Positions 1 to 57,410 of a DNA stretch of 64,000 bases are shown here, piece by piece; positions within the stretch are counted from its first letter, which is position 1, and each line of letters starts with the position of its first letter. This stretch comes from Candidatus Woesearchaeota archaeon. Its GTDB lineage: Archaea; Nanobdellota; Nanobdellia; SCGC-AAA011-G17; GW2011-AR18. Under the pieces are notes generated by a model. That model did not search any database and was not told the DNA's origin. It saw only the letters and a program-made list of their open reading frames with translations. Made by a program: the position numbers and the translations under genes. The stretch spans positions 35,969-99,968 of the forward strand of contig JAGVZG010000003.1 of assembly GCA_018302765.1 (NCBI GenBank). Reading direction: 5' to 3'.

Positions 1-8
1 TAATAGCC

Positions 9-935
9 ATGCTGATAATCAGAAAAACAGCATACAAAGCTATTAAAAAAATAAAAGCTATAAATATGGATTTAAAAATAATAAAATTCTCATGGCCATT
101 ATTATTCACAGGTCTAGTATTCTCAATTACAGGATGGATAGACACATTGATGATAGCTTATTTTTCAACAGAAGAATTAGTTGGTCTGTACAATACAGCA
201 CTTCCAACTGCAGGCATAATTCTTATTACTCAAAGTTCATTTGACGGAGTATTTATTCCCATTATGTCAAGGTTATTTTCAAAAAAAGACTACAAAAACA
301 TAAAAGAAAATTACGAAAGAGTAACAAAGTGGATAACAATACTGACAATACCTTTATTCATGTCTATAATATTTTTCTCTAAGGGAATTATAAATATATT
401 ATTTGGAACGCCGTATCTAGAAGCATATAAGCCTACAATAATTCTTGCTGTGGGTTTTCTAATGGTTATGATTGTAGGTCCATGTGAAAATATGTTAAAT
501 GTAACTTTCAAAACAAAACTAAAAATGTATCTAAGAATAATAATGTTAATTATAAATATAATATTAAATCTTATACTAATCCCAAGATATGGAATAAGCG
601 GAGCTGCAATATCAACATCAGTAGCACTAACATTTTATAATATATGCTGTTTTATATATGTAAAAAATAAATTCAATGTTAATATTATAAAACTAAAAAC
701 AATTTCAATTATATTGGCCAGTGCATTATTGCCATTATTATTAAGTATTTTATACAACCCATTAAATAAGCTTGTAACAATGTCATTCATAATATTATCT
801 TTAATCTATTCAACAATAATAATCATACTAATGAAATACCTAAATAAAGAAGATATAATTATTATTTACGATATAGAAAAAAAATTAAACATAAAACACA
901 CAATAAGTTCAATATTAACAAAATACTCAAAGTAA
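9..935 (+). CDS. Wzx/MATE-like oligosaccharide flippase, C-terminal part (probably 5'-truncated by the window edge)
   Basis: Multi-TM protein with motifs typical of polysaccharide flippases (DTLMIAYF...GLYNTA; LNLILIPRYGISGAAIST); frame is open to the window edge. Confidence 0.8.
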   Translation: MLIIRKTAYKAIKKIKAINMDLKIIKFSWPLLFTGLVFSITGWIDTLMIAYFSTEELVGLYNTALPTAGIILITQSSFDGVFIPIMSRLFSKKDYKNIKENYERVTKWITILTIPLFMSIIFFSKGIINILFGTPYLEAYKPTIILAVGFLMVMIVGPCENMLNVTFKTKLKMYLRIIMLIINIILNLILIPRYGISGAAISTSVALTFYNICCFIYVKNKFNVNIIKLKTISIILASALLPLLLSILYNPLNKLVTMSFIILSLIYSTIIIILMKYLNKEDIIIIYDIEKKLNIKHTISSILTKYSK

Positions 936-938: not shown

Positions 939-1688
939 TCACTTAATCTTAGCAACAGCAATCCACTCATAAGGCTGCGAAGATGGTACAAGTTCTATTA
1001 ATCTAAGCAGTAAATATAAAGTATAAGTAAGTATTTTTATCTTGGAAAACTTAGAGATGAATTCCTGAACCTTAAAGTGGTTTATATTATTAACTAAACT
1101 AACAACAGTAAATTCATTATCTTCTAACTCTTTAATTATAGTTTTTTTAGTCCAGAATTCATCATAAACAGGCGAAGGATAATGTTTAGTATGCCACTTA
1201 TAAATAAACCCATTAGGAACGTCAAATATCAAATAACTATTTCTTGACATTAATTTCTTTATGCTTTTATAAAGAATTCTCCTTTTACTTATATCAAAGT
1301 GCCTAATAAATTTAAAGCTATAAACAAGATCAAATTTCTTGCCAATATTCATCTTAAAAACATCTACAACTTTCAAATTAAATCTGCCATTTAAATTAAC
1401 ATTAGCTATTTTCAACATTGCCTTGCTATTATCAACTGCTAATCCATACTTAAAACCATAAACATCTTTAGAAATCCTACCAGGACCTGTAGCAACATCT
1501 ATAACGCTGCTTATTTTTTTATCTCTAATGAATTTATTAATAAATGATATCTGATTGTGATGTATTAATCTCCCTAATGGCCTATTAAACCTGCTATTTA
1601 TATAGTCCTTAGCTAACTTCTCATTTTCATAGTACTTCTTTATTTCATTTACTGTTTTTTTCATCTTTAAATCCGAAAAATAATTCAT
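939..1688 (-). CDS. Class I SAM-dependent methyltransferase (likely start ATG at 1664)
   Basis: VIDVATGPGR motif I, AVDNSKAML, FDLVYS. Confidence 0.8.
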   Translation of the reverse strand: MNYFSDLKMKKTVNEIKKYYENEKLAKDYINSRFNRPLGRLIHHNQISFINKFIRDKKISSVIDVATGPGRISKDVYGFKYGLAVDNSKAMLKIANVNLNGRFNLKVVDVFKMNIGKKFDLVYSFKFIRHFDISKRRILYKSIKKLMSRNSYLIFDVPNGFIYKWHTKHYPSPVYDEFWTKKTIIKELEDNEFTVVSLVNNINHFKVQEFISKFSKIKILTYTLYLLLRLIELVPSSQPYEWIAVAKIK

Positions 1689-2358
1689 AAAGAACTTTTA
1701 AACCCCAAAGAAGATTAAAACCAATAAAGTAATACAATAAAAAATACTTCATAAAACCAGATAAAACAAATGAATCAATTATAGCAAATAAGAAAAAAAC
1801 ATTATGAAAATAAGGAATTAAAAACAAATTTTTATATGATCTAACTAATTTTTTCTTAAATGGAATTTTTGCAACATCTTTTCTAAAAGCCTTTTCAGGA
1901 TGGATTTTTACATCTTCTAATCTAACTAACTCCACCATAGAATAGCCAAAAATAGAAAAAACCCCAAAGAACAAAAATAATTTTGATTCTGTAGTCAAGA
2001 ATATGCTAAAAGTTAATGCAGATAAAGGTAATAAGTAAGATAACCAAGTAGAAATCCAATCAAAAAATTCTCCCCATTTAAGAGACTTTGTCTTATTATA
2101 TCTTGCAATCTCGCCATCCACATAATCCAATATTGCAGCTAATCCAAACAAAAATCCTCCTAACAAATAATTATTAAAAAAAATCAAAACAGAAGAAACA
2201 ATAACCAAGGAAGCCCAGAAAGCAGAAACTTGGTTTGCAGTTATTGGAGTATGAACCAAGACCCAGCTTATATAAGGTGAAATATATCTATAACCCATCC
2301 AGCTGACAGTAGGGGGTTGAACAATATTTTTATATTGCTTAAAACTTACCATAAACAA
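1645..2358 (-). CDS. CDP-alcohol phosphatidyl/phosphotransferase family membrane protein (likely start 2352)
   Basis: Family signature LDYVDGEIAR...GEFFD; ITANQVS. Confidence 0.85.
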   Translation of the reverse strand: MFMVSFKQYKNIVQPPTVSWMGYRYISPYISWVLVHTPITANQVSAFWASLVIVSSVLIFFNNYLLGGFLFGLAAILDYVDGEIARYNKTKSLKWGEFFDWISTWLSYLLPLSALTFSIFLTTESKLFLFFGVFSIFGYSMVELVRLEDVKIHPEKAFRKDVAKIPFKKKLVRSYKNLFLIPYFHNVFFLFAIIDSFVLSGFMKYFLLYYFIGFNLLWGLKVLYELFFGFKDEKNSK

Positions 2359-2371
2359 AACACAGTAAATA

Positions 2372-2393
2372 GTCTTTTAAAACTTATGAATTT
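2372..2393 (-). promoter_or_regulatory. TATA box with conserved upstream TTCATAA element
   Basis: Minus strand AAATTCATAAGTTTTAAAAGAC about 20 nt before ATG 2352; near-identical copies at 12541-12562 (+), 17153-17175 (-), 32249-32270 (-), 35436-35454 (+). Confidence 0.55.
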
Positions 2394-2411
2394 ACAAACT
2401 CAAAATATTAT

Positions 2412-3557
2412 TTAATAGATTTTCCTTAGCATAACTTCCAAAGCATCACGAGTAAGAACACGCGGATTATTTATAACTCTTTCAGGATTAAATCCTTCAT
2501 TTAATACAATATCAACGCCACTTTCAGTTACACCTAATTTTGATAATCTTCTTTCTAAACCTATTAAATCTAATAGACACTCAAGCTTATGTTTAACATA
2601 TAAACAATCTGTTGTATCAAACATTAAACAAAGTTCACCCATTGTATCTAAAACATAACTTATTCCTCTTTTGTCTTGAACTGTATCTTCTTCTACTGCC
2701 CCATTATAATCAAATATAGAAGGAAGAGTTAAAGCAACTGCATGACCATGCTGCACACCAAAATGTGCACTTATTGGATAAGAAACTGAATGAGGCGCAG
2801 TTGTTCTTGCTATATTTATTGCTTTCCCAGCAAGATTACTACCACAAGTCATAACTTCTCTGTGTTTGGCATATGGATTATTTACAACTTCATATAAAAC
2901 AGGCAAAATTGAAGTAATTGCATCACTGCTATATCTCTTAGATTCGTCAGTTGATCTCACTGACCAAAAAGCTTCAATAGCCTGAGCCAGAGCATCTATG
3001 CCTGTACAAGCAGTAATATAAGGATTTAAGCTTGAAGTAAGGCCTGGATCAATAATTGCAAATTCAGGAAAAACAATTTTATTATCTAATGAATACTTTT
3101 GCTTTTCCATATAAATAACAGCAAATTGTGTTGCTTCACTTCCAGTGCCTGCTGTAGTTGGTATAAGAATTTTAGGCAAACTTTTTCCTATTAGAGGAAT
3201 TTTTTTTGTGATTAAACTTTTATAATCATCAATTAATTGTGTAGATAAAACAGCAATGCATTTTGCAGTGTCTAAAACATTTCCACCTCCAATTCCAACA
3301 ACAACATCAGCTCCACTGCTGCGTGCAATAGAAACACCTTCTGCTATAGTACCAATATTAGGCAACGAAGAAGAAACAATAAAACGATTAACGTTATAAG
3401 GCGAAAGTAAAACATCAACAATTGGTTTAGCCCCACTAGCAACATAAGAAGTACTGCCTACAACAAGCATAACGTTTCTGCTGCCAAGAATATTTAAAGC
3501 TTTACTTAACTCTCGTACTTTCCCCCAGCCTTGATATTCAACAATTCCCAATTTCAT
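2412..3557 (-). CDS. Iron-containing alcohol dehydrogenase, probable phosphonoacetaldehyde reductase (PhpC-like)
   Basis: GIGGGNVLDTAK, IPTTAGTGSEAT, DALAQAIE, H...HG metal ligands; 4-nt overlap with ppd. Confidence 0.8.
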   Translation of the reverse strand: MKLGIVEYQGWGKVRELSKALNILGSRNVMLVVGSTSYVASGAKPIVDVLLSPYNVNRFIVSSSLPNIGTIAEGVSIARSSGADVVVGIGGGNVLDTAKCIAVLSTQLIDDYKSLITKKIPLIGKSLPKILIPTTAGTGSEATQFAVIYMEKQKYSLDNKIVFPEFAIIDPGLTSSLNPYITACTGIDALAQAIEAFWSVRSTDESKRYSSDAITSILPVLYEVVNNPYAKHREVMTCGSNLAGKAINIARTTAPHSVSYPISAHFGVQHGHAVALTLPSIFDYNGAVEEDTVQDKRGISYVLDTMGELCLMFDTTDCLYVKHKLECLLDLIGLERRLSKLGVTESGVDIVLNEGFNPERVINNPRVLTRDALEVMLRKIY

Positions 3558-4696
3558 CTCCTAAGAAAATCGCAGAAACGTTCTGTCAATTGATGAGGTG
3601 AAATTTTTTCTGTTATGCGGGACGCTTTAGGAATTTCAGAAGAAGAAACTTTTACATGTATAAAATTTGGGCCATCATTAATAAGAGATGTTTTAACAAG
3701 CTCAGATAATTTGCTAGCTGTCGTACAAAAAGCGCTGTTTCTGTAATCACAATTGAAAGCAACTTCTGAAAAATCAACAGTGCCTGACGTTGTTGGCTGA
3801 CCTCCTGTTGATTCATAAGATTCATTATCAATTACAATATGAACAAGATTTTTTGGTCTGTAGTGTCCTATTGAAGACATTACACCCATATGCATAAGCA
3901 AAGCTCCATCTCCATCAATAACAACAACTTTTTTATCTGTCGAACATGCTACGCCCAAACCTATTCCTGCTGCATGGCCCATTGATCCCTGCATATAAAA
4001 ATGAGAAGTTCTGTCCTGTATTGCAAAAAGCTCACGTGAACTAGTTCCAGTAGTTGAAATAACTACAACATCTTGATTAACAGAACCAACAATAGTACAT
4101 AGAGCTGTAGTTCTGCTCATTCTAAGCTTATATTCATTTTCAATAAATATATTCTTCCACTTATAATGAGGAATGTTAAAATGTCTAAAGGAATTTTCAT
4201 CATGTTCTAATACATCTTTTTTCACAACCAAAGCTACTAACTTTCTATTTTCAATAGACTCAGAATGAGCACGTTTAACACAGCCATAAGCATCAGTGTC
4301 ATTCTTAGGAAGATCATATGCAGAAATAGAAAGACTTTCAAGTATTTTACGCATTGCTTTTCCAATAATTTTATGTTGTGGTTCATCCTCTATACCATAA
4401 GCTCTTCCACTAATAAAAAACAACATTGGTATTCCAAAAGGTATGCACAATGAAGACAAAGGATTTATTGCATTTCCTAATCCAGAATTCTGCATTATAA
4501 CTACAACATTTTTTCCACCCAAATAAGCTCCTGCTGCAAAGCTTACAGCAAGTCCTTCATTAGGAGCAACAAAATAAAAAGATGTTTCATCTCTAGAAAT
4601 ATTATTTAATAATGAAATAAAGTAAGAACAAGGAACTCCAGAAAAAAAACTATAACCTTTCTCTTTTAATAATTTATATAAATCAATAGATTTCAT
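3554..4696 (-). CDS. ppd: Phosphonopyruvate decarboxylase (single-chain, TPP-dependent)
   Basis: FFSGVPCSY, NEGLAV, MQNSGLGNAINPL, EDEPQH, MQGSMGHA, DGDGALLMHMG, DNESYESTGGQPT; phosphonate cluster context. Confidence 0.9.
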   Translation of the reverse strand: MKSIDLYKLLKEKGYSFFSGVPCSYFISLLNNISRDETSFYFVAPNEGLAVSFAAGAYLGGKNVVVIMQNSGLGNAINPLSSLCIPFGIPMLFFISGRAYGIEDEPQHKIIGKAMRKILESLSISAYDLPKNDTDAYGCVKRAHSESIENRKLVALVVKKDVLEHDENSFRHFNIPHYKWKNIFIENEYKLRMSRTTALCTIVGSVNQDVVVISTTGTSSRELFAIQDRTSHFYMQGSMGHAAGIGLGVACSTDKKVVVIDGDGALLMHMGVMSSIGHYRPKNLVHIVIDNESYESTGGQPTTSGTVDFSEVAFNCDYRNSAFCTTASKLSELVKTSLINDGPNFIHVKVSSSEIPKASRITEKISPHQLTERFCDFLRR

Positions 4697-4697
4697 A

Positions 4698-6050
4698 CTA
4701 ATGCTTTCCTTCCTTATTGTACCAAGGAACTAATTCACCACAAACTCTTTCTAATCCACTTCTATCTAAAAGAGATAACTCATGCTGGGTATCTCCTGAT
4801 AAACGTCCGCCTATGCGCATAACTAATAATCTCCCAATTCCATTATCTGAAATAAAACGATGTTTCACACAAGGCTTCATATAAACAGAATCTCTAGGAT
4901 AAATATACTCATACTCCACTTGTCGATCATAACTAGATTCCCAACTAAGACCAACACGACTTTCACCAATATTGTAAATATATTGATGTCCTAAAGTTTT
5001 TAAGCTTGAAGTCTCACCTGGACGTACAGTAACTTCTAATCCTTTAGAATAAGGTAACTTAGGAGTAGAAGCAAGCTCAACAAAAGTATAAAGTCCACTT
5101 TCATCTGGATAATTCCATCTTCTAGCTTGCTCATAAGATAAATTAATCACAGGATCAGAACTTACTACAGGCATTAAATCTCTAACGCTAACACCTAAAA
5201 CTTTAGCAACAGATCTTAATTCATCTACAGTAGGAATAATATCTCTGCCATCTTCAATAGATTGCATATACTTTAAAGATAAACCAACTTTTTTAGCAAG
5301 TATGTCAAGAGGCATAGATAATTGTTCACGGAAAAACCTAATTAAAGATCCAGAAGCTCCTCCATCAGAATAATTAATTAAAAAATCAGAAGCAGAATTC
5401 AAACCTAAAACTGCTAATTCCTGCTGGGCATCACCCATTAACCTAACACCATAAGTCAAAGCAAGAATAACGCCAAGTTCTCTAGCTTCATTTTTACGAG
5501 TTGCAAAAGTATGGGGAATATAAGGTGTAATATACATTGAATCTCCTGTATTTGTCTGTACACAAAAACGTTTTCCTCCATGTTCATAATAAAAGTTAAC
5601 AGGTCCAATGAAGTATGTAAATTGATGTAAAAAATGCCCATTATTCCAGCACAGTTCTTCTGAATTAGGGTCATTATTATCAACAACTAGAAGTTCTTTT
5701 ATCCACTCTGGTCTAAAAAGAGAAGTCCTGCTCATTGCAGTGTCTCTGTATTCATAATAAGGTCTGCCTCCACGATCAAGAACACGAGAAGATCTTTCGC
5801 TTTGTTCATTAGTCATTATTAACGCACCACTACGAGCATCATCTTCAAAAACATAAAAATCCCTTATATTAACTGGCCAAATCTGAGATGCTTTAACAAT
5901 AAGTTCATGCGGTATTTCTTCTCTACCGTCAATATATCTCTGCAAAAGAGAAGTATCAATTCCTAATTCACATGCAGCAGTACTAAAATCACGTTTAAGG
6001 TCATTTAAAATGCCAAAAAAATTACGTCCCATTAATTTATTACTTAACAT
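4698..6050 (-). CDS. mpnS: Methylphosphonate synthase-like mononuclear Fe oxygenase (MpnS / class III HEPD family)
   Basis: Extensive recalled similarity to Nitrosopumilus MpnS: NFFGILNDLKR, WPVNIRDF, YYEYRDTAMS, WNNGHFLHQFTYFIGPVNFYY, NTGDSMYITPYIPHTF, MRIGGRLSGD. Start set at ATG 6050 with GGAGG SD; the ORF track extends it to 6119. Confidence 0.85.
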   Translation of the reverse strand: MLSNKLMGRNFFGILNDLKRDFSTAACELGIDTSLLQRYIDGREEIPHELIVKASQIWPVNIRDFYVFEDDARSGALIMTNEQSERSSRVLDRGGRPYYEYRDTAMSRTSLFRPEWIKELLVVDNNDPNSEELCWNNGHFLHQFTYFIGPVNFYYEHGGKRFCVQTNTGDSMYITPYIPHTFATRKNEARELGVILALTYGVRLMGDAQQELAVLGLNSASDFLINYSDGGASGSLIRFFREQLSMPLDILAKKVGLSLKYMQSIEDGRDIIPTVDELRSVAKVLGVSVRDLMPVVSSDPVINLSYEQARRWNYPDESGLYTFVELASTPKLPYSKGLEVTVRPGETSSLKTLGHQYIYNIGESRVGLSWESSYDRQVEYEYIYPRDSVYMKPCVKHRFISDNGIGRLLVMRIGGRLSGDTQHELSLLDRSGLERVCGELVPWYNKEGKH

Positions 6051-7782
6051 TCCCAACTCCTCCAAATTCAGCAACAGCAGCACAATAATTATCTGGAGAA
6101 TGTAATTCTCTCCATCCATGATTCACTTCAACACTTTTAACATTATAACCACGATCTATTATCTCTTGAATTACATCTGTCAAAGAAGCCTTGTAAATTG
6201 ATTCAGCTTCATGAAAATATCCGTCTATATACTTTCCCAAACAATCATGATAAACTTGCATTAAAGACTCTGCACCTCTTCTAGATAAATAAGTAATGCC
6301 TATAAACTCAGCACTCGCCTGTTCACAAGGAATTGATTTGCCTATTCTTAAAACACGATTTTCTGGTCTACGCAACTGTCTCAAACCTGAATTATTTGTA
6401 ACAACCAAATCTAACTTCGATTTATAGTCTGGCTCACGCAGACGATAAGAATTATCAGTAACAATAATAATATCACTATCTTGCCTTGAAGACAAAACTT
6501 TTTTAATAATTTCATCTGTAAATAAAATATCAGAGTAAACTATTAACAATTCATTATTAAATTCCTTTTCAGCACGTGCAAGTGTAGCCATTATTCCTTG
6601 ATCTTGCATACTTGCATCACAAAAACGAACACCTTGAACATAAAGTTTCTCTTCATGCTGGCCACGAATTACAACGCAATCGCTAATGCCAACATTCTTT
6701 AATGACTGAAGTTGATAATCAATAACTCTACCATCTCCAAATTGAAGAGAACTGCAAGGCTTATTAGAACACAAATCTCCTAAATTAGTATGCTTACCTG
6801 CTGCAGGAATTACTACTTTAACGCCATTTTCATAAGCCATTCCTCTGGTCTTTAAGTCATTAAATCCTACAACTTCAAAAATAGTTTTAACAGGAGTACA
6901 TAACCCATCTGCTTCTAAAGACCTTCCGTGCGCAAGAATAGATCTGGCAACGCCTTCCATACTTCTATGGGCAGCACGCAGCATATGGTTTGCATAAATT
7001 ACAACATTAAATCCTGCTTCTCTTAATTCATCTTCAGTAATAGAATTATAAGTAGTAGGAACACAAATAAGAGGTTTAAATACACCTAGCTCCCTACATA
7101 AAACATGATATTCTCTAGAAAAAGATAATACTTGGTCTGGCGTATTTTGATTAGAATGTATCATTACGCCATCAACACCTGCTTGAAGATAAATTCTAGC
7201 TCGTCCAACAGCGTCTTCTAAATCACGTCCTGCAATAAAACTTTCTATACGTGAAAAAATAAGTAAATCTTGACTTAGTCTATTATCAATACCCCTACGT
7301 AATTTAGCAGCAAAATCCTTAGGGTCTTCTAATACATGTGAAGAAGTTTTATCCAAACTATTACGTTTAGGCCAAACTTGATCCTCAACAATAACAGCAG
7401 AGACACCAAAATTAGTAAGACGCTGAAGCAAATAATCAAAATTATTAGAGTCTCCTCCAGTGTCCCCATCAACAATCAAAGGTTTGCGGGTTACATTTGT
7501 AATTTCAGCGACAGTTTCAATTCTGGAATCAAAACTCACTACTTGAACATCAGGCTGACCTTTTGCTGCTGAATCAGTAAAACTACTGACCCATATGCCA
7601 TCAAATTCTAATGCGCCATTAGAACCATCAATAATATCAACTGAAGCCTTTTCAGCCACTATTGCGCTTAAGCCATTATGTGCTTCTAAAACTCTTACAA
7701 ATCTACCATTATCAAACATAGCTCTAAGCAAACCTCTACGTTTCTCCGGAAGAATAACTTCTCTACTAGGCATTAGCATCAC
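6040..7782 (-). CDS. pepM: Phosphoenolpyruvate mutase fused to C-terminal nucleotidyltransferase (PntC/LicC-like)
   Basis: EAHNGLSA, DGIWVSS, VDGDTGG, EDQVWPKRNS, SRIES, MIHS, CVPTTY; C-terminal half VIPAAG...KP...YSDILF...EFIG...GWRE. Confidence 0.9.
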   Translation of the reverse strand: MMLMPSREVILPEKRRGLLRAMFDNGRFVRVLEAHNGLSAIVAEKASVDIIDGSNGALEFDGIWVSSFTDSAAKGQPDVQVVSFDSRIETVAEITNVTRKPLIVDGDTGGDSNNFDYLLQRLTNFGVSAVIVEDQVWPKRNSLDKTSSHVLEDPKDFAAKLRRGIDNRLSQDLLIFSRIESFIAGRDLEDAVGRARIYLQAGVDGVMIHSNQNTPDQVLSFSREYHVLCRELGVFKPLICVPTTYNSITEDELREAGFNVVIYANHMLRAAHRSMEGVARSILAHGRSLEADGLCTPVKTIFEVVGFNDLKTRGMAYENGVKVVIPAAGKHTNLGDLCSNKPCSSLQFGDGRVIDYQLQSLKNVGISDCVVIRGQHEEKLYVQGVRFCDASMQDQGIMATLARAEKEFNNELLIVYSDILFTDEIIKKVLSSRQDSDIIIVTDNSYRLREPDYKSKLDLVVTNNSGLRQLRRPENRVLRIGKSIPCEQASAEFIGITYLSRRGAESLMQVYHDCLGKYIDGYFHEAESIYKASLTDVIQEIIDRGYNVKSVEVNHGWRELHSPDNYCAAVAEFGGVGNVK

Positions 7783-7854
7783 TAAGTGATAAACAAAAAA
7801 GAGAACTTATAAAAAGTTTATGGTAACTAAAACCTGTATATTAAAGAATAATGT

Positions 7855-8595
7855 TTAATCATATTTTCCAAGAAAAGAATTAATTCTAATTCTAAACATA
7901 TCTCTCAAACCCTCAAATACAGTAGTTATTTTTACTCTTTCACTACCTACGTAATGCCACTTAACTGGAGCTCCAACAATTTTAAATCCCTTTTTCTTAG
8001 CTATGAATAAAGTTTCAATATCAAATCCAGGGTTTACAGCAGCTCTTTCAAGTTTGAAATCTTTCTTCCACCTTCGTAGCATTGAAGGAAATATGACCTT
8101 AATAGATTTTTTATTAAAAGCCTTAAACCCGCATTGTGTATCTTGGAAAGGTAAACCTAAAATAAGAACCCTTAAAACAACGTATCCATAAGCATACAAC
8201 TTTCTAATAAATGGTGCGCCTTTTCTACCTTTTCTTAAGCCTATAACCATATCATATCCTTTTTCAAAAATTGGAAAAAATTTTTCAACCTCGCTTATAG
8301 GCACAGCCTGATCCATATCAGTAAAAAGAGTTATGTCTCCACGGCTTGCAAGCAATCCAGTCATAACAGTTATTGCCTTACCACCATGTTCATTCTGTAT
8401 AAGTTTAAAATTCTTCTTATTAACAATATATTTTTTAACCAGAGAAATAGTGTTATCTTTAGACCCGTCATCAACTATTATCACTTCATAAGAATACCTC
8501 TTATTTTTAAAATAAGAAGCAACTTGTTCCAATACGTTTTTCCTTAAATTTTCTGCTTCATTATAAGCAGGTATTATCACTGACAGCTTTACCAT
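7855..8595 (-). CDS. GT2 polyprenyl/dolichyl-phosphate glycosyltransferase
   Basis: SVIIPAYNE, VDDGSKD, FTDMD, DTQCGFK, GFDIE. Confidence 0.9.
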   Translation of the reverse strand: MVKLSVIIPAYNEAENLRKNVLEQVASYFKNKRYSYEVIIVDDGSKDNTISLVKKYIVNKKNFKLIQNEHGGKAITVMTGLLASRGDITLFTDMDQAVPISEVEKFFPIFEKGYDMVIGLRKGRKGAPFIRKLYAYGYVVLRVLILGLPFQDTQCGFKAFNKKSIKVIFPSMLRRWKKDFKLERAAVNPGFDIETLFIAKKKGFKIVGAPVKWHYVGSERVKITTVFEGLRDMFRIRINSFLGKYD

Positions 8596-9841
8596 TTTTA
8601 ACAAAAGTATAAATTAGCATAAATATAAATGTTAGTACTATCAAAATAAGCAAAACAAATATCACCTGTAATAAACTGCTATGGTAAAAAACTAAAAGTA
8701 AAAATTCTAGTAATATTAATAATACCAAACCATAAACAAAATTTATTCTATTAACAGAAAGATTGTAGAAAGCAAGTAAATAAACATAAGAAAATATGCT
8801 CATCAAAAATGCAAAAATAGCTATGTATTTCGTAATAACAAGATAGCTTTTACCAAATAACACTAACACTACAAGTTTAGGGAATAATAAATAAACTAAA
8901 ATAATTCCTCCGCATAAAATAGAGACTAAAAATAAAGCTTTCTTCAATAAATGTAAGTTTTCCTTACCTAAAGCATGCATCTCAGCTACCTTGGGAAACA
9001 ATACAGAAACAATGGCAAATGAAACAAAAAATGCAATTCTTCCCAACAAAGCTGCTGCAGCATAATAGCCTGCAGTAACGTCATCAAAATAATACTTAAC
9101 TAGCATGACGTCTAAACTATAAAACAAAGTCAAAGACAGCAAAACAATAAAAACAGGCCAGGAATATTTATAAACAATTTTTGTATTTAATTTTTTATTA
9201 TATTTCTTAAAATAATTCCTTATTAGAAAAAAGCCAACTAAGAGTGAAATAATATAAGAACTAAATATTCCTAATGTTGCACCAAATACACCAAGTCCTA
9301 AAAATACAAGTATCAAACCAAAGCAAAATTTAACTATAGCTTCTATAATAAAATTATTGCCTAAACTTCTAAAGCTTTGCAGGCCCTGCAAAACCCCACG
9401 TACTACTGGCAACAAAAAAAGAGCCGGGATTGATATAGCAACAATAAATAAAACATTGATTGGAATCTTAAGATATTTGGATAAAAACAAGTAAGACAAA
9501 AAAACTAATACAGTAAAGGCACAAATACTTATCAAAAGTAATTTTCTGCTAGCTCTAACAAATAAATTACTTATGCTTTTATTATCTCCTTTTGCCTTAA
9601 ACATTGCCACAAATTTAGATATAGAAGTTTGTATAACATTAAAAGGAACTAACAAAATGTAAAATAATGATAGCACAACCCCTAAAATACCATAATCAGC
9701 AGGGCCTAAAACCCTTCCCATAACAAAATGATAAAGAAAACCAGCTAAATTCATAATCATTGTAGCTATAAAAAGAATAAAACTATCTCTAATCAAACTA
9801 TCTTCCTTAGTGTATTTAAAAAGTTTCCTTAGATAAGCCAT
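8561..9841 (-). CDS. Oligosaccharide flippase (Wzx-like)
   Basis: About 12 TM; RVLGPADYG, RGVLQG, LDVMLVKYYF, GYYAAA. Confidence 0.85.
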   Translation of the reverse strand: MAYLRKLFKYTKEDSLIRDSFILFIATMIMNLAGFLYHFVMGRVLGPADYGILGVVLSLFYILLVPFNVIQTSISKFVAMFKAKGDNKSISNLFVRASRKLLLISICAFTVLVFLSYLFLSKYLKIPINVLFIVAISIPALFLLPVVRGVLQGLQSFRSLGNNFIIEAIVKFCFGLILVFLGLGVFGATLGIFSSYIISLLVGFFLIRNYFKKYNKKLNTKIVYKYSWPVFIVLLSLTLFYSLDVMLVKYYFDDVTAGYYAAAALLGRIAFFVSFAIVSVLFPKVAEMHALGKENLHLLKKALFLVSILCGGIILVYLLFPKLVVLVLFGKSYLVITKYIAIFAFLMSIFSYVYLLAFYNLSVNRINFVYGLVLLILLEFLLLVFYHSSLLQVIFVLLILIVLTFIFMLIYTFVKNGKAVSDNTCL

Positions 9842-10833
9842 ATTAAACTACTAAAAAATAATTGAATTAATATCATAAAAAATACTATTTGTTTCTCTGT
9901 GAATTTCCCAGTTCTTGCAAAAACATGAGGAAAAGAATATATCTTATCATAATCTACTTTAACTTTGCCTTTGTAATAATAGCCATAACTCTGAGCCTTA
10001 AACCTGCTGCGTGCTTTAAGAACAAATTCGATAAAAAAAGGAATGGCACTAATAATTGCTGCTTTTTCTATATTCCCGACTATAGCAATAATAGCAATAG
10101 TTGCTCCTAATAAATAAGTCAATGAATCACCTGGAAGTATCTTGGCAGGACATTTATTATAAACATAAAAAGCAATTAAGGAAAAAAAAGCAACTAAAGC
10201 TATCAATGCTGCTATATATCTATTAAAATGATAAGCATATATTCCCAACATCCCAATATAAACTATAGCCATGCCAGTGCCAAGACCATTATAACCCTCC
10301 AACATATTTACCATGTTAGAAGCACCAACAACACCTATTGGAATAATAAATAAAGGATAAAATATCCCTATATCAACAACACTGAAAATAGGCAACCACA
10401 TCTCTGTATTTCCTGCATTAACAACCATTAAAGGGACAGCAGCAGTAAGAGTCAATAATGGCTTCTCCCACTGCTTCAAGCCTATTGAATAATCTTTAGA
10501 ACTTTTAATTACTAGATCATCTAAAAAACCAACTAGTGTTATTATAAACAAACTAACCATGCTAGCAAACAACAGCATTAGATTTCTATCAGTAGCCACA
10601 AGCCCAACTTTTCCCGTAACAAAAAAAGTTCTATAAAAAATAAACAGTAATAAACCAGAGAACACCCCAACAAGTACTGCAAGACCACCAGATATAGGAA
10701 CTAGTGGCTTGTCTTTTTTATTTTGATCTTTAACAACCAAACCTATTTTTACAAGATATTTTATTAACCAAGGTGTAATAAAATAAACTACAAGAAAACT
10801 TACAATGCCATAAGAAAAAATTGAATAATTCAT
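9829..10833 (-). CDS. MraY/AglH-type polyprenyl-phosphate HexNAc-1-phosphate transferase
   Basis: GGLAV, VGFLDD, NMVNMLEGYNG, ILPGDS. Confidence 0.85.
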   Translation of the reverse strand: MNYSIFSYGIVSFLVVYFITPWLIKYLVKIGLVVKDQNKKDKPLVPISGGLAVLVGVFSGLLLFIFYRTFFVTGKVGLVATDRNLMLLFASMVSLFIITLVGFLDDLVIKSSKDYSIGLKQWEKPLLTLTAAVPLMVVNAGNTEMWLPIFSVVDIGIFYPLFIIPIGVVGASNMVNMLEGYNGLGTGMAIVYIGMLGIYAYHFNRYIAALIALVAFFSLIAFYVYNKCPAKILPGDSLTYLLGATIAIIAIVGNIEKAAIISAIPFFIEFVLKARSRFKAQSYGYYYKGKVKVDYDKIYSFPHVFARTGKFTEKQIVFFMILIQLFFSSLIWLI

Positions 10834-25616: not shown

Positions 25617-28256
25617 CTAAAACTGAGTAAGTGACAAATCAGGAAATTCTCTTCTTGTATAATAATTATACTCACTTTTATCCAAACTAAAACCATCAGG
25701 ATAATTAACTTTCCATATTTTTATAGGACCAAGGCTTCTTCCATTGTACAAACCTAAAGGAATATTTGAACTATCATCGTAAACCAAATTGAAATATTTA
25801 CTATCTTGACCAAATAAATATAATCTAGCAAACATAGATTCAGATACTCTTCTAGAAACAAAAATAGCTGCTCCTAGTCTATTAAGCTGATTTCCCTGCA
25901 CGGCAGGAATTACCTTTATGCAACCGCCATAATCATAAGTACCAAAATAATATAATTTGTCAATATATACACACTTAACGGTTAACTGCAACTGCTCCCC
26001 TTGTGACTGCAATACAATTTTAGGTTGCATTACAGAAGCAGAAACAACATTACCTTCGTTATCAACAGTGTTAACTAAAGGAATTAAAGCACCTATAATA
26101 GCTGTACCTTTTGGATAAACTTTACTATTATATACAAAATCTTCATCCAAAGGATAGCCACCTGTGTAAACTAACAAAGTACCGTTTCTAGTTTCCTTAG
26201 ATAAAGAAGAATCTAATCCCATATAAGTAAGGTAAGAATATCTATCAAAATTTTTATCAGAACCTATCAATGAATAAGCAGAATATTTTCCAACTTCGTC
26301 ACCTATAATCAAAAGATAACTTACATTATGTGCATATAAGAAACCTAGAGCATCGCTGTCATTAGGCGCAGTCAAAACATTTCTAGCAGTTAAATAATTC
26401 CACCATCCAATCCTATTGCCGCCATCAGTAACAGTAGTCCTCTCAAATCCAGATTGAACCCAATAACCATAATCCCACCAGTGATTAAAAACAGCATCTT
26501 TAGGAGTGTTCTCTCTAACCCATTTGCCAGCACTCTGCCATTGTGAATGATAAGCAGGACCACTAAATTTAACTTGATTATAAGAGCTTTGAATGTCTTC
26601 AAAAATAATACCTTTGGCAAAAGAGAAAGGATTAAACAAAACAAATACAAATAATATCACTGCCAGATATTTTAATAAAGTATATTTTAAGCTCAGACAA
26701 TAATCCACAATATAAATCAAAGCAAATGATGAAAAAATAACCACAAAAGTAGATAGCTCAAAAAATAATCTTATAGCAGAGGTGCCTCCAACAATATTTA
26801 TCAAAGCAATCACTAAGATAAAAGTGTAACGTGGGTCTAATTCTATTGTAAATATTGTGCTGCTGATGCCGGCTTCATAATAATTTTTAACATAGTAATA
26901 TAAAGTATAACCAACCAATACAATAATAGAACCATAAAAAAGAATATTAGACAATAAGCTCTTTCCATTCAGTATACTGCCCTCTGAGTATTTAGAAAAT
27001 ATAAAAGCCAAAACACAAGTAACATAAACATAAAACAATTTCTTATAATCCTTAAGATGTTTTACTAATTTATATAAAAGTATTATTAAGCCTATAATAA
27101 ATAACCATACAAGAAGCCAGCCAAAAGAAGAAAACCAATCAATGACAAAAATTCTTCTATTCTCAGCAACTGTAGATGCCCACCTATTACCAACAAAAGC
27201 GCTGGAGAAAATACTGAAAAATCCCCTTATCATAGCCATGAAAAAATCAAAGCCAAAAAAAGAAATTAAAAATAATACACTAAAGACAATAACAAGAAAA
27301 AAAGCAGCAAAACCTTGCGGGACTTTTGTTAATAATTTCTGAATAAACTTATTATGTTTAATAGACTTAATATTGAATAATAAATAAGCACATAAAGTCA
27401 AAAATACAATAGTAGCAGGTAGACTGCTGGTGTGGTCAGATAAAAAACGATTTAATGTTAATTTTCCAGTTCCCAACAACACAGAAAAATTAACCAAATA
27501 CCAAGTTGAATAAACATATATATCACTCTTCTTGACACTATCAAGCAAAATATGAATCAAAGTGAATATACCAACAATCATAAAAAATATTGCCATATTG
27601 CCTGCAGTATTATAACCAAGAATACTAGTAAATGCAGCACAAACTCCAAAAATAATATTATTTCTAATTTTTTTAGATTGCCATGCGACAATGAAAAAAT
27701 ACAGTGTCATGAATATAAACATAATACCAAGTATATCGTGATCAGAAGAAATGCTTCTATACAAAAAAGTAGGAACTGTAACTAAGAACAAAGAAGATAA
27801 TAAAGCAACCCTGTAATCAAACAATCTTCTGACAAATAAAAATAAAAACAAAGCAGCAATTACTGTAGCTACAGTAGGATATACTACATCTGCAAATTCT
27901 ACAGTAAAAGAAGGAACAAATACATGCACGATTTTATACATATAAGCAACAAAATAAGAAGTAAAAACACCAAAATCAATATTCACACCTAAAGGATAAT
28001 TTCTCATTACATCAACTGCATAAAGCCTACCATGTTCAGCAATATACTGAGCATACCTCAAAAACAAAGTTGAATCAAGCTCTAAAGAAATATATCTTCC
28101 TGTAGTAGCATCCCTAAGCAAACCCCAATTCTGAGAACGAATAAAGTAAGCAAGCCACAAAATGGCAATTAATAATATATACTGTATCAAGTTCTTCTTT
28201 TCTTTAACAAATTTAATTATTTTCTCTTTCCTAGCTTCTAATTCTTTATTGTTCAT
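25617..28256 (-). CDS. aglB: Archaeal oligosaccharyltransferase AglB (STT3 family)
   Basis: WWDYG motif, ELD, DHD, TVAE (TIXE-like) loop, many TMs plus soluble C-terminal domain. Confidence 0.93.
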   Translation of the reverse strand: MNNKELEARKEKIIKFVKEKKNLIQYILLIAILWLAYFIRSQNWGLLRDATTGRYISLELDSTLFLRYAQYIAEHGRLYAVDVMRNYPLGVNIDFGVFTSYFVAYMYKIVHVFVPSFTVEFADVVYPTVATVIAALFLFLFVRRLFDYRVALLSSLFLVTVPTFLYRSISSDHDILGIMFIFMTLYFFIVAWQSKKIRNNIIFGVCAAFTSILGYNTAGNMAIFFMIVGIFTLIHILLDSVKKSDIYVYSTWYLVNFSVLLGTGKLTLNRFLSDHTSSLPATIVFLTLCAYLLFNIKSIKHNKFIQKLLTKVPQGFAAFFLVIVFSVLFLISFFGFDFFMAMIRGFFSIFSSAFVGNRWASTVAENRRIFVIDWFSSFGWLLVWLFIIGLIILLYKLVKHLKDYKKLFYVYVTCVLAFIFSKYSEGSILNGKSLLSNILFYGSIIVLVGYTLYYYVKNYYEAGISSTIFTIELDPRYTFILVIALINIVGGTSAIRLFFELSTFVVIFSSFALIYIVDYCLSLKYTLLKYLAVILFVFVLFNPFSFAKGIIFEDIQSSYNQVKFSGPAYHSQWQSAGKWVRENTPKDAVFNHWWDYGYWVQSGFERTTVTDGGNRIGWWNYLTARNVLTAPNDSDALGFLYAHNVSYLLIIGDEVGKYSAYSLIGSDKNFDRYSYLTYMGLDSSLSKETRNGTLLVYTGGYPLDEDFVYNSKVYPKGTAIIGALIPLVNTVDNEGNVVSASVMQPKIVLQSQGEQLQLTVKCVYIDKLYYFGTYDYGGCIKVIPAVQGNQLNRLGAAIFVSRRVSESMFARLYLFGQDSKYFNLVYDDSSNIPLGLYNGRSLGPIKIWKVNYPDGFSLDKSEYNYYTRREFPDLSLTQF

Positions 28257-37188: not shown

Positions 37189-38186
37189 CTATTATAAGAA
37201 GTAGGTCACCCCATAGGATAGAATTTTGTGGTGGTGGGACAGACGTACCTGAATACTATAAAAAAAATGGGGGCTTTGTAATAAATGCAGCAATTAACAA
37301 ATATTCATATGTAAGCCTTCACCCATATGATGAAGGTATAAAAATTACTTTAGAAAACAAAAATACTGTAGAATTTCCAAATTTAAAGAGTATAAAATTT
37401 GAAGGGGATTTTGATTTAGTAAAGGCTATAATAAAAAAATTGCAAATAAATAACAAGGAAATATTCCTAAGAAATGATATCTTACCAAGCAGTGGATTAG
37501 GGACAAATGCGGCAATTGCAACAGCAGTTATAGGAGTAATATACAAATTAAGAGAACAAACATTAGACAAAAAAGAAATAGCAGAAGCCGCTTATGAAAT
37601 AGCCTCAAAAGAATTAGGAATTTATGGAGGAAAACAAAACCAATATTCTTCAGCATTTGGAGGAATAAATTCAATAGAATTCAAAAAAGATGGAGAAGTA
37701 ATAGTAACACCTCTAAAAATTAGCAAAAACACATTAAGAGAACTGGAAAAGCACCTAGTCTTAGTTTATGTAGGAAAAAGAATAAACCCAAATGAAATAC
37801 TAAAAAAACAAGAAAAAGAAAGTCTGCAAAATAATAAATTAGAAGATCTAGATAAACTAAAATATATTGCAATGGAAATGAAAGATGTTCTGGAAAGTGG
37901 AGACACAATAAAATTTGGAAAACTAATGGATAAAGCATGGAACATAAAAAAAGTATTTAATCCGAATATTTCAACACAATATATAGAACACATATATGAA
38001 ATAGCAAAAAAAAATGGAGCAATAGGTGGAATGATAAATGGTGCTGGTGGGGGTGGTCATATACTATTTTACGCTGAACCAAATAAAGAACCGCTGCTTG
38101 TAAGAAAACTTCAAGAAAATGGAGCAAGAGTTTTAGATTTTAGTTTTGACTTGGAAGGCCTAGACGTGTGGGATACTACAAAATGA
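37185..38186 (+). CDS. GHMP kinase, HddA-like (D-glycero-D-manno-heptose-7-P kinase family), divergent active site
   Basis: RIEFCGGGTDV, SSGLG, GGKQNQY, GAGGGG; ATGA overlap with the upstream gene. Confidence 0.8.
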   Translation: MTIIRSRSPHRIEFCGGGTDVPEYYKKNGGFVINAAINKYSYVSLHPYDEGIKITLENKNTVEFPNLKSIKFEGDFDLVKAIIKKLQINNKEIFLRNDILPSSGLGTNAAIATAVIGVIYKLREQTLDKKEIAEAAYEIASKELGIYGGKQNQYSSAFGGINSIEFKKDGEVIVTPLKISKNTLRELEKHLVLVYVGKRINPNEILKKQEKESLQNNKLEDLDKLKYIAMEMKDVLESGDTIKFGKLMDKAWNIKKVFNPNISTQYIEHIYEIAKKNGAIGGMINGAGGGGHILFYAEPNKEPLLVRKLQENGARVLDFSFDLEGLDVWDTTK

Positions 38187-45565: not shown

Positions 45566-45838
45566 ATGATAATAAAAATTTTAGCACTTGCAGATATATT
45601 AACAATAATATCATTACTGGGAGTAAGCCTATTACCGCAAAAATTAGTTCTGGCAATGGCCATTTATCTAATGTTAAAAGGCCTTGTATTTATATTGATA
45701 GGAAGTTTATTTCCGAACTTTATTGATATGCTGTGTGGTTTTTACATTATATTCGCTGCATTTGGAATAACTCATTGGATACCAACTGTAATAGTAATAC
45801 TATTTATAGGTCAGAAAGCATTTTTTTCTCTAGTCTAA
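45566..45838 (+). CDS. Small membrane protein
   Basis: 90 aa, almost entirely hydrophobic. Confidence 0.6.
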   Translation: MIIKILALADILTIISLLGVSLLPQKLVLAMAIYLMLKGLVFILIGSLFPNFIDMLCGFYIIFAAFGITHWIPTVIVILFIGQKAFFSLV

Positions 45839-57395: not shown

Positions 57396-57410
57396 AATAT
57401 TACCTCTTGA

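What the first reader, a model, noticed from the sequence alone, without database searches (positions are those of the whole stretch)
2412..7782. Complete methylphosphonate biosynthesis operon inside an archaeal N-glycosylation locus
Seen: pepM-NTP transferase, mpnS-like, ppd and Fe-ADH in one tightly packed run (overlaps or 1-nt gap). Established: PEP -> phosphonopyruvate -> phosphonoacetaldehyde -> 2-hydroxyethylphosphonate -> methylphosphonate is the Nitrosopumilus maritimus route that feeds aerobic methane release through C-P lyase. Inference: a DPANN-like archaeon makes methylphosphonate-decorated surface glycan or lipid. I am not aware of this being described for this lineage, and it would add a new biological source of MPn.
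Basis: partly seen in the sequence, partly recalled or inferred. Interest (0 to 1): 0.92.

Follow-up and report, generated by a model that had tools for sequence, protein, structure and literature searches.

The report
Methylphosphonate synthesis operon in DPANN archaeon
A tiny (1 Mb) Woesearchaeota-type DPANN archaeon carries an intact four-gene pathway for methylphosphonate, the precursor of 'aerobic' methane, inside its surface-sugar gene island; the enzymes are known ones, but the host lineage and probable groundwater setting are not among the recognised producers.

Summary
On the minus strand lie pepM fused to a cytidylyltransferase (7782-6040), mpnS (6050-4698), ppd (4696-3554) and an Fe-alcohol dehydrogenase (3557-2412). 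They are joined by an 11-nt overlap, a 1-nt gap and a 4-nt overlap.

- **The oxygenase reads as MpnS.** It scores 432 bits against Nitrosopumilus MpnS (6b9s) and 284 against SaHEPD. It keeps the 2-His-1-Gln triad and the Phe/Ile product switch. It falls in the clade anchored by thaumarchaeal MpnS.
- **The host is DPANN.** The genome is 1.02 Mb, and its AMP phosphorylase is 82% identical to a Woesearchaeota protein.
- **The cassette is native but accessory.** Synteny and a near-identical second assembly cross both edges. It was found in 6 of 240 genomes of the order and not in two same-genus genomes.
- **Two caveats.** The only PepM has EDQ instead of EDKX5NS, a rare variant shared by three lineages. 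Activation as CMP-methylphosphonate and transfer by the adjacent CDP-alcohol phosphotransferase-like protein, which lacks the fourth Asp, are inferred.

I found no paper linking MpnS to DPANN. This scan had already noted MpnS in other DPANN genomes. I file it as a new member of a known kind, of moderate to high interest.

The parts
6040..7782 (-). PEP mutase (N-terminal, about residues 1-310) fused to a LicC/PntC-like cytidylyltransferase domain (about residues 320-580). The catalytic-loop motif is EDQVWPKRNS (nt 7386-7357) in place of EDKX5NS. The likely real start is the ATG at 7773 (577-aa form, P0414).
   Evidence: PF13714 E=1.4e-46, PF12804 E=3.6e-9, TIGR02320 312.8 bits (cut-off 319.55). 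Best PDB matches are PEP mutases 5unc and 1m1b, and LicC 1jyk for the C-terminal domain. It is the only PepM in the genome. EDQ occurs in 3 of the 120 nearest homologues.
4698..6050 (-). Methylphosphonate synthase (MpnS), 450 aa. Fe ligands are H139, Q143 and H180; second-sphere residues are F153 and I174 (codons at 5636-5634, 5624-5622, 5513-5511, 5594-5592 and 5531-5529).
   Evidence: phmmer against PDB: 6b9s MpnS 432 bits, E=2e-128; 6b9r SaHEPD 284 bits. Marker columns read HQFIH. Tree placement. GGAG lies before the ATG at 6050.
3554..4696 (-). Phosphonopyruvate decarboxylase (Ppd), TPP-dependent, 380 aa.
   Evidence: TIGR03297 equivalog at 360.2 bits, above the 312.5 cut-off. PF02775 and PF02776.
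2412..3557 (-). Group III Fe-dependent alcohol dehydrogenase, the inferred phosphonoacetaldehyde reductase that makes 2-HEP.
   Evidence: PF00465 E=2.7e-35 and PF25137 E=3.4e-29. The best NCBIfam hit is TIGR03405 Phn_Fe-ADH at 166 bits, below its cut-off. It lies directly downstream of ppd in the six DPANN-type contigs examined, L006, L008, L010/L011, L019, L020 and L028.
1645..2358 (-). CDP-alcohol phosphotransferase-like membrane protein, the candidate phosphonyl (CMP-MPn) transferase. Its motif is DYVDGEIAR-x8-GEFFDWIST, so the fourth Asp is replaced by Thr.
   Evidence: PF01066 E=1.4e-7. Aligned to AF2299, 4o6m. The fourth position is not Asp in all six cluster-linked orthologues checked.
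939..1688 (-). Class I SAM-dependent methyltransferase that overlaps the transferase gene by 44 nt. Its role is unknown (glycan or phosphonate O-methylation).
   Evidence: PF13649 and PF08241. A 62%-identical orthologue occupies the same position in L006.
7783..7854 (-). Intergenic region upstream of pepM, with a TTTATAA (TATA-box-like) element about 30 nt before the start. It is a candidate operon promoter, and the evidence is weak because the genome is AT-rich.
   Evidence: Read directly from the sequence.
7855..10833 (-). Upstream glycan genes: GT2 (8604-7855), Wzx-like flippase (9841-8561) and GT4 AglH/WecA-like initiating transferase (10833-9829).
   Evidence: PF00535, PF01943 and PF00953. 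The order is the same in L006, and GT4-Wzx is conserved in same-genus genomes.
3..935 (+). MurJ/Wzx-type flippase, cut by the window start. It bounds the cassette downstream.
   Evidence: PF13440, PF01554 and PF03023. A 67%-identical orthologue occupies the same position in L006.
25617..28256 (-). AglB/STT3 oligosaccharyltransferase with WWDYG at residue 593. It marks the island as an N-glycosylation locus.
   Evidence: PF02516 E=5.6e-19 and PF21436. WWDYG motif.

Best explanation
The run 7782-2412 (minus strand) is a functional methylphosphonate (MPn) biosynthesis operon of a Woesearchaeota-type DPANN archaeon.

**Steps backed by sequence evidence**
- The PepM domain converts PEP to phosphonopyruvate.
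- Ppd decarboxylates that to phosphonoacetaldehyde.
- The Fe-ADH reduces it to 2-hydroxyethylphosphonate (2-HEP).
- The 450-aa bi-cupin, a 2-His-1-Gln Fe(II)/O2 enzyme with the Phe/Ile product switch, cleaves 2-HEP to MPn plus CO2.

**Steps that are inferred**
- The LicC/PntC-like domain fused to PepM activates the phosphonate with CTP, giving CMP-MPn.
- The adjacent CDP-alcohol-phosphotransferase-like membrane protein moves the methylphosphonyl group onto a hydroxyl of a lipid-linked glycan or a lipid.
- The flanking Wzx-type flippases and AglB then display it on the surface.

The cassette is an accessory, probably laterally moved, module of a variable glycan island. The cell makes MPn but cannot use it, because it has no C-P lyase. 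It would therefore act as a source of MPn for other organisms.
For: **Enzyme identity**
- MpnS scores 432 bits against NmMpnS and 284 against SaHEPD. H148, Q152, F162, I184 and H190 are all conserved, as is the stretch that holds K28, R102, the YYEY tyrosines and N145.
- All 120 nearest homologues read HQF[I/V]H.
- Among the 50%-identity family representatives, 65 read HQFIH and 18 read HQYGH.
- The window's clade (support 1.0) is sister (0.962) to the clade that holds the thaumarchaeal anchors. The HEPD-marker sequences lie outside.
- The anchors were checked. P0023 scores 682 bits against 6b9s, and P0167 scores 387 bits against 6b9r.
- Ppd passes its equivalog cut-off.
- PepM is the only copy in the genome.

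**Operon and its conservation**
- The genes overlap or nearly abut.
- The set pepM-CyTase, mpnS, ppd, Fe-ADH and CDP-OH transferase recurs in six other DPANN-type contigs.

**Host and contig integrity**
- The genome is 1.02 Mb and 100% complete. Its relatives are 0.5-1.3 Mb.
- The AMP phosphorylase is 82% identical to 'Ca. Woesearchaeota'.
- L006 is syntenic from GT4 to the far flippase.
- An independent assembly is 99.986% identical over 7353 nt.

**Physiology**
- No PhnJ was found.
- An Fe/Mn SOD is present.
Against: - PepM has EDQ where every surveyed PepM filter expects EDK. Lys120 of the Mytilus enzyme is catalytically important (recalled from Liu et al. 2004, not re-read here). TIGR02320 falls 7 bits short of its cut-off.
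- The Fe-ADH does not reach any phosphonate-specific equivalog cut-off.
- MpnS needs O2, and no terminal oxidase (cytochrome bd or COX1) was found. Oxygen exposure of this organism is therefore unproven.
- The CDP-OH transferase lacks the fourth Asp of the family motif.
- The substrate of the cytidylyltransferase could be 2-HEP, as for Fom1, and not MPn.
- There is no biochemical evidence for any step.
Confidence: 0.75

Rival explanations
1. The pathway runs, but the group that is activated and attached is 2-HEP (Fom1-like cytidylylation giving CMP-HEP). MpnS then converts only part of the pool, or MPn is released free. The surface decoration would be HEP, or a mixture.
For: Other DPANN clusters carry the Fom1 architecture, an N-terminal CTP_transf_like domain fused to PepM. 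Some also have a B12 radical-SAM enzyme nearby, as Fom3 is in the fosfomycin cluster. The specificity of the NTP_transf_3 domain cannot be read from sequence.
Against: MpnS is strictly retained between pepM and ppd in every cluster, which argues that its product is the intended one. In N. maritimus MPn is found esterified to polysaccharide (Metcalf 2012, recalled). The window itself has no B12 radical-SAM enzyme next to the cassette.
Confidence: 0.15
2. The cassette is inactive or decaying in this genome. The K-to-Q change disables the sole PepM, or the organism lives without oxygen so MpnS never turns over.
For: EDQ replaces EDK. No terminal oxidase was found. The cassette is missing from same-genus genomes, so it is dispensable.
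Against: EDQ is shared by three lineages whose PepMs are only about 61% identical. In each, mpnS, ppd and adh downstream are intact. All six genes here are open and translationally coupled. Gln at this position is normal in the sister methylisocitrate lyases of the superfamily (recalled). An Fe/Mn SOD is present.
Confidence: 0.08
3. The oxygenase is not an MpnS in function. It would be an HEPD-like enzyme making hydroxymethylphosphonate plus formate, or it would give another product.
For: The Phe/Ile markers are spread over much of the family tree, including deep unstudied branches. Only the Nitrosopumilus and Pelagibacter enzymes have been assayed (recalled from Metcalf 2012 and Born 2017).
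Against: All five markers are present, and the protein scores 148 bits higher against MpnS than against SaHEPD. It lies inside the well-supported clade that contains the NmMpnS-type anchors.
Confidence: 0.05
4. The cassette does not belong to the archaeon. It would be a mis-binned or chimeric contig.
For: The cassette is 34.3% GC against 30.2% for the genome, which puts it in the top 2.5% of equal-sized windows. Its tetranucleotide distance is in the top 5%.
Against: It lies 38-44 kb inside a 100-kb contig. A second assembly is 99.986% identical across both edges. Another DPANN MAG shares the same flanks at 58-82% protein identity. The MpnS is less than 50% identical to the thaumarchaeal ones.
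Confidence: 0.02

Closest known systems
Methylphosphonate cluster of Nitrosopumilus maritimus and other ammonia-oxidising archaea (Metcalf et al. 2012; MpnS structure 6b9s/6b9t, Born et al. 2017)
   Same: It has the same four chemical steps (PepM, Ppd, Fe-ADH, MpnS). The Fe site and Phe/Ile switch are the same. The cluster is likewise associated with nucleotidyltransferases and surface-glycan genes.
   Different: MpnS is only about 47-48% identical. Here PepM is fused to the cytidylyltransferase and Ppd is a single polypeptide. In the Nitrosotenuis locus (L018) Ppd is split and the nucleotidyltransferases are separate genes. There the transfer candidates are sulfatase-family proteins, whereas here it is a CDP-alcohol phosphotransferase-like protein. 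The host is a 1-Mb DPANN archaeon without amoA (the amoA search rang in none of the control genomes, so that absence is not shown).
Class with SaHEPD (Streptomyces albus 2-hydroxyethylphosphonate dioxygenase, 6b9r)
   Same: It has the same bi-cupin fold with HTH-like domains, the same substrate (2-HEP) and the same 2-His-1-Gln triad.
   Different: SaHEPD-type sequences have Tyr/Gly where this protein has Phe/Ile. The score is lower, 284 bits against 432. They form a separate clade.
PntC / LicC-type phosphonate cytidylyltransferases and PepM-nucleotidyltransferase fusions (Rice et al. 2019, PMC6697681); Fom1 of fosfomycin biosynthesis
   Same: A PepM fused to a nucleotidyltransferase is the commonest logic of phosphonate tailoring. 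The C-terminal domain here matches LicC, 1jyk.
   Different: The characterised PntCs act on 2-aminoethylphosphonate and Fom1 acts on 2-HEP. Activation of MPn has not been shown for any of them. This cluster has no aminotransferase for 2-aminoethylphosphonate.
CDP-alcohol phosphotransferases AF2299 (4o6m) and IPCT-DIPPS (4mnd) of Archaeoglobus
   Same: It shares the membrane fold family and the D-x2-D-G-x2-A-R...G-x3-D part of the signature.
   Different: The fourth Asp is replaced by Thr here, and by His or Gln in orthologues. It has no cytoplasmic domain. The predicted donor is a CMP-phosphonate, not a CDP-alcohol.

Membership tests
Methylphosphonate synthase (MpnS, EC 1.13.11.73) | Full-length bi-cupin with two HTH-like domains, about 450 aa, alignable end to end with NmMpnS | tested here: met
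   Query residues 30-472 of the 473-aa ORF align to residues 16-455 of 6b9s at E=2e-128.
Methylphosphonate synthase (MpnS, EC 1.13.11.73) | 2-His-1-Gln Fe(II) triad (Nm H148, Q152, H190) | tested here: met
   H139, Q143 and H180 in 450-aa numbering.
Methylphosphonate synthase (MpnS, EC 1.13.11.73) | Second-sphere Phe162 and Ile184, which hold the Gln on iron and set the product (HEPD has Tyr/Gly) | tested here: met
   F153 and I174 are present. The marker string is HQFIH, against HQYGH in 18 HEPD-type representatives.
Methylphosphonate synthase (MpnS, EC 1.13.11.73) | Phylogenetic placement with assayed MpnS and not with HEPD | tested here: met
   FastTree places the window's clade as sister (0.962) to the clade holding anchor P0023, which scores 682 bits against 6b9s. 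HEPD-marker sequences lie outside. The root is not secured.
Methylphosphonate synthase (MpnS, EC 1.13.11.73) | Converts 2-HEP and O2 to methylphosphonate and CO2 | not testable with these tools
   This needs an enzyme assay with 31P NMR.
PEP mutase (PepM/Ppm) | Catalytic-loop motif EDKX5NS | tested here: not met
   The motif is EDQVWPKRNS. The NS is kept, but Lys is replaced by Gln. EDQ occurs in 3 of the 120 nearest homologues.
PEP mutase (PepM/Ppm) | Equivalog-level HMM score (TIGR02320) | tested here: inconclusive
   The score is 312.8 bits against a cut-off of 319.55. The next best family, phosphonopyruvate hydrolase, reaches only 148.6 bits.
PEP mutase (PepM/Ppm) | Genetic coupling to a phosphonopyruvate decarboxylase | tested here: met
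   ppd lies two genes downstream in the same operon.
Phosphonopyruvate decarboxylase (Ppd) | Equivalog HMM TIGR03297 above its cut-off, with both TPP domains | tested here: met
   360.2 bits against a cut-off of 312.5, with PF02775 and PF02776.
Phosphonoacetaldehyde reductase (PhpC/FomC/Pdh type Fe-ADH) | Group III Fe-ADH fold | tested here: met
   PF00465 and PF25137.
Phosphonoacetaldehyde reductase (PhpC/FomC/Pdh type Fe-ADH) | Equivalog HMM TIGR03405 above its cut-off | tested here: not met
   166.2 bits against a cut-off of 423.7. It is only 26% identical to the Nitrosotenuis cluster ADH. The function is assigned from conserved operon position.
CDP-alcohol phosphotransferase | Signature D-x2-D-G-x2-A-R-x8-G-x3-D-x3-D with all four Asp | tested here: not met
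   The first three Asp are present and the fourth is Thr. All six cluster-linked orthologues also lack it.
Archaeal N-glycosylation (Agl) locus | AglB/STT3 with the WWDYG motif, plus initiating GT4, flippase and glycosyltransferases | tested here: met
   STT3 domains and WWDYG at residue 593. GT4, Wzx and several GT2 are present.

The most novel reading that the evidence does not exclude
DPANN archaea of the Woesearchaeota/Nanoarchaeia are an overlooked, mainly non-marine (groundwater and freshwater) source of methylphosphonate. They would esterify it to N-glycans or lipids through a previously unrecognised branch of CDP-alcohol phosphotransferases that lacks the fourth Asp and uses CMP-methylphosphonate. 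Current surveys miss them for three reasons. The MpnS is annotated as an HTH regulator. Some of their PepMs carry EDQ and fail the EDKX5NS filter. KEGG-based searches lose divergent copies. This could supply the missing MPn source for oxic methane production in aquifers and lakes.
Probability: 0.35. Interest if true: 0.78.

Novelty: new member of a known kind. Interest (0 to 1): 0.6.

Why it matters
Methylphosphonate is the accepted substrate for methane release in oxygenated water, but its known makers are marine (Nitrosopumilus, SAR11).

- **Open question.** Studies of lakes and aquifers find abundant C-P lyase and little or no recognisable mpnS (PMC10734540, PMC11978286). One of them noted ppd genes resembling Woesearchaeota.
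- **New candidate source.** A complete, conserved MpnS operon in DPANN archaea would add a producer guild outside the ocean. These are organisms with 1-Mb genomes that nonetheless spend phosphorus on a surface decoration.
- **Blind spots in surveys.** The EDKX5NS filter used by PMC8942020 and PMC8931226 would reject this PepM. Public annotation calls these MpnS 'helix-turn-helix proteins'.
- **Oxygen exposure.** Because MpnS needs O2, the gene also marks oxygen exposure in a lineage usually modelled as anaerobic.

Tried and rejected
- **Read evidence.** No read-level continuity, expression or habitat data could be obtained.
- **rRNA and amoA.** The searches for an archaeal SSU rRNA gene and for amoA in the genome found nothing. 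The amoA control rang nowhere, so that absence is not shown.
- **Genome scan for relatives.** The search for related loci on genome contigs returned only one distant bacterial relative, a Balneolaceae at 41%.
- **Taxon names.** The listing of cluster members gave almost no taxon names.
- **Born et al. 2017.** The paper is not held, by DOI or as PMC5901744. Its residue numbering and its Y163F/G184I conversion are cited from memory.
An earlier scan note says a DPANN MpnS is listed in a 2025 paper's supplement. I searched the MpnS alignment supplement of PMC11978286 for six peptides of this protein and found none. That file is truncated as stored, so the result is inconclusive.
- **Direction of transfer.** I considered inferring it from the tree (DPANN as donor or recipient). 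I rejected this because the root is arbitrary and most tips carry no taxon label.
- **HGT from composition.** The GC and tetranucleotide deviation of the cassette is modest. I do not take it as proof of recent transfer.

Full report
**Observation**

ORF listing shows an unbroken minus-strand run.

| Window coordinates | Length | Identity | Evidence |
|---|---|---|---|
| 7782-6040 | 580 aa | PEP mutase domain plus MobA-like nucleotidyltransferase domain | PF13714 E=1.4e-46; TIGR02320 312.8 bits, 7 below its cut-off |
| 6119/6050-4698 | 473/450 aa | MpnS-like bi-cupin | see next section |
| 4696-3554 | 380 aa | phosphonopyruvate decarboxylase | TIGR03297 360 bits, cut-off 312.5 |
| 3557-2412 | 381 aa | group III Fe-alcohol dehydrogenase | PF00465 plus PF25137 |

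The junctions are an 11-nt overlap, a 1-nt gap and a 4-nt overlap. The real start of the second gene is the ATG at 6050, which follows a GGAG. This gives the 450-aa protein that public gene callers also predict.

**The oxygenase**

- Against all PDB sequences it scores 432 bits (E=2e-128) with Nitrosopumilus maritimus MpnS (6b9s/6b9t). It scores 284 bits with Streptomyces albus HEPD (6b9r), and only E=4e-5 with the HppE epoxidases.
- In that alignment Nm H148, Q152 and H190 (the iron triad) are all identical. So are F162 and I184, the residues that Born et al. 2017 showed to decide MPn against hydroxymethylphosphonate. That paper is not held, so this is recalled.
- The stretch containing K28, R102, the YYEY tyrosines and N145 is also conserved. 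In 450-aa numbering the markers are H139, Q143, F153, I174 and H180.
- All 120 nearest database relatives read HQF[I/V]H.
- In an exhaustive search of 1.84 billion cluster representatives the family has 184 members at E<=1e-30. Among 95 full-length representatives, 65 read HQFIH and 18 read HQYGH, the SaHEPD state.
- In a FastTree phylogeny the window groups with eight sequences (support 1.0). These include the same-family genome G019 and the MAG GCA_053531355.1. This clade is sister (0.962) to a clade that holds the other DPANN copies and the thaumarchaeal ones. Sixteen of the 18 HEPD-marker sequences lie in one separate clade.
- I checked the anchors. P0023 ('Thaumarchaeota') scores 682 bits against 6b9s. 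The HQYGH representative P0167 scores 387 bits against 6b9r and 282 against 6b9s.

By every sequence criterion available, this is an MpnS.

**The host**

- The genome is 1.02 Mb in 28 contigs and is estimated 100% complete. Its relatives at genus to class level are 0.5-1.3 Mb.
- The window's AMP phosphorylase is 82% identical to a protein of 'Candidatus Woesearchaeota archaeon'. The next named hits are Nanoarchaeia and Nanoarchaeota.
- A 130-nt intron-containing tRNA is present.
- 'DPANN-like' is therefore correct.
- A scaffold in another public assembly (ERZ28564302, name beginning ANAN16-1_SAMN03202995) is 99.986% identical over 7353 nt spanning window 1698-9050. The name suggests an aquifer data set, but I could not verify the habitat.

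**Is the cassette native?**

- It lies 38-44 kb inside a 100-kb contig.
- MAG GCA_053531355.1 (L006) has the same order: GT4, Wzx, GT2, pepM-CyTase, mpnS, ppd, adh, CDP-OH transferase, methyltransferase, flippase. The only extra is one nucleotidyltransferase gene. Protein identities run from 35% (GT2) to 82% (GT4).
- The two same-genus genomes keep GT4 and Wzx (72% and 64% identical) but have no cassette and no PepM. They are 73% and 87% complete.
- Across the order, 6 of 240 genomes have an MpnS. In an even sample of the phylum, 2 of 400 others do.
- The cassette is 34.3% GC against 30.2% for the genome, in the top 2.5% of equal-sized windows. Its tetranucleotide distance is in the top 5%.
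- The picture is an accessory module of a variable glycan island, probably moved laterally. It is not an assembly chimera.
- The nearest non-DPANN PepM-CyTase fusions are from Nitrospinota, at 54-58% identity among the named hits.

**Two irregularities**

1. *The PepM motif.* The motif is EDQVWPKRNS. Published surveys accept only EDKX5NS (PMC8942020, PMC8931226). Of the 120 nearest PepM-CyTase proteins, 117 have EDK. The three with EDQ are the window's own and those of L019 and L020. In both of those contigs the downstream mpnS, ppd and adh are intact. The closest full orthologue, L006, has EDK. This is the only PepM in the genome. I read EDQ as a conserved and probably functional variant, because Gln is the normal residue in the sister methylisocitrate lyases (recalled). 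It remains the weakest link of the 'complete pathway' claim.
2. *The CDP-alcohol phosphotransferase-like protein.* The 237-aa protein directly downstream (2358-1645) aligns to AF2299. It reads D-x2-D-G-x2-A-R-x8-G-x3-D-x3-T, so it lacks the fourth Asp. All six cluster-linked orthologues also lack it, with T, H or Q at that position, and one also has Glu in place of the third Asp. An earlier scan note said the same, and I confirmed it on independent loci.

**Mechanism**

- *Shown by homology:* PEP to PnPy to PnAA to 2-HEP to MPn.
- *Inferred:*
  - The fused LicC/PntC-like domain (1jyk E=5e-6) makes a CMP-phosphonate. This is the predominant logic of phosphonate tailoring (PMC6697681).
  - The D4-less transferase passes the phosphonyl group to a glycan or lipid hydroxyl.
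  - The island's flippases and AglB (WWDYG) display it on the surface.
- *Alternative:* The activated species may be MPn or 2-HEP, and this is open. Other DPANN clusters have the Fom1-type N-terminal cytidylyltransferase and sometimes a B12 radical-SAM enzyme.
- *Contrast with Thaumarchaeota:* The Nitrosotenuis cluster instead has separate nucleotidyltransferases, a split Ppd, and sulfatase-family proteins flanking mpnS. The DPANN version is thus a differently packaged relative of the known system.

**Physiology**

The genome has no PhnJ, so it is a producer and not a consumer. It has an Fe/Mn superoxide dismutase. No cytochrome bd, haem-copper oxidase or superoxide reductase was found. An O2-dependent enzyme in such a genome implies at least micro-oxic exposure.

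**Novelty**

- Full-text searches found no paper linking these terms:
  - 'methylphosphonate synthase' with DPANN or Woesearchae;
  - mpnS with Nanoarchaeota;
  - methylphosphon* with DPANN;
  - phosphonate with Woesearchae.
- The papers that surfaced do not report it either.
- Public records call the DPANN homologues 'helix-turn-helix domain-containing protein'.
- This scan has already reported MpnS in several other DPANN genomes. I could not confirm that for this protein.
- The chemistry and the enzyme families are known. What is new is the host lineage, the likely non-marine setting, and the packaging: the fusion, the EDQ PepM and the D4-less transferase.

I file it as a new member of a known kind, with interest 0.6.

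Noticed in passing
window 7357-7386 (-): The PepM catalytic loop reads EDQVWPKRNS and not EDKX5NS. The variant is shared only with two other DPANN contigs (L019, L020) among the 120 nearest homologues. The motif filter used in published phosphonate surveys would discard it.
   Followed up: yes
window 1645-2358 (-); L006 14399-15103, L008 15441-16169, L010 15578-16207, L019 5565-6269, L020 5568-6275: In every DPANN MpnS cluster examined, the CDP-alcohol phosphotransferase-like protein lacks the fourth Asp of the family signature (T, H or Q in its place). This looks like a distinct phosphonate-linked subfamily.
   Followed up: partly
window 53625-56183 (-): A MoxR-type AAA ATPase is interrupted by an intein with a LAGLIDADG homing endonuclease (PF14890, PF14528). 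It sits in a MoxR-DUF58-VWA/BatA gene set running from 51461 to 61555.
   Followed up: no
window 52661-53500 (-): A 279-aa ORF combines a partial reverse-transcriptase domain (RVT_1, C-terminal part only) with an HTH_40 domain. It is possibly a remnant of a retroelement.
   Followed up: no
window 61931-62060 (-): A 130-nt tRNA match (Rfam, 42 bits) was not found by ARAGORN. It is presumably an intron-containing archaeal tRNA.
   Followed up: no
window 45830-47941 (-): A 703-aa fusion joins a glutamine-amidotransferase/asparagine-synthase-like region to a diphthamide-synthase-type ATP pyrophosphatase domain (PF00733 plus PF01902).
   Followed up: no
window 48963-50450 (+): An archaeal AMP phosphorylase is 82% identical to a 'Ca. 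Woesearchaeota' protein. I used it here to name the lineage. It is part of the nucleotide-salvage route typical of DPANN.
   Followed up: partly
L026 (G002:C11) and L027 (G001:C16): Same-genus genomes conserve GT4 and Wzx, but different genes follow the GT2 in place of the phosphonate cassette. The swap point of the variable island therefore lies just downstream of the Wzx/GT2 pair.
   Followed up: partly
L006 18027-19457; L020 15429-16898; L010 11562-13100: Radical-SAM enzymes, with a B12-binding domain in L006 and L020, lie in or beside the DPANN MpnS clusters of other genomes. They recall Fom3 of fosfomycin biosynthesis. None is adjacent in this window.
   Followed up: no
family-wide (P0146-P0293): In the HEPD/MpnS family tree, the Phe/Ile 'MpnS' state is spread over most deep branches and the Tyr/Gly 'HEPD' state forms mainly one nested clade. 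Some proteins are fused to other domains, for example the 689-aa P0076 (NTP_transf_3) and the 759-aa P0087 (TauD).
   Followed up: partly
window 33871-35382 (+) and 38168-39823 (+): The same glycan island holds a radical-SAM/SPASM protein and a SIS-GHMP kinase fusion (sugar-phosphate isomerase plus kinase). Their roles were not examined.
   Followed up: no
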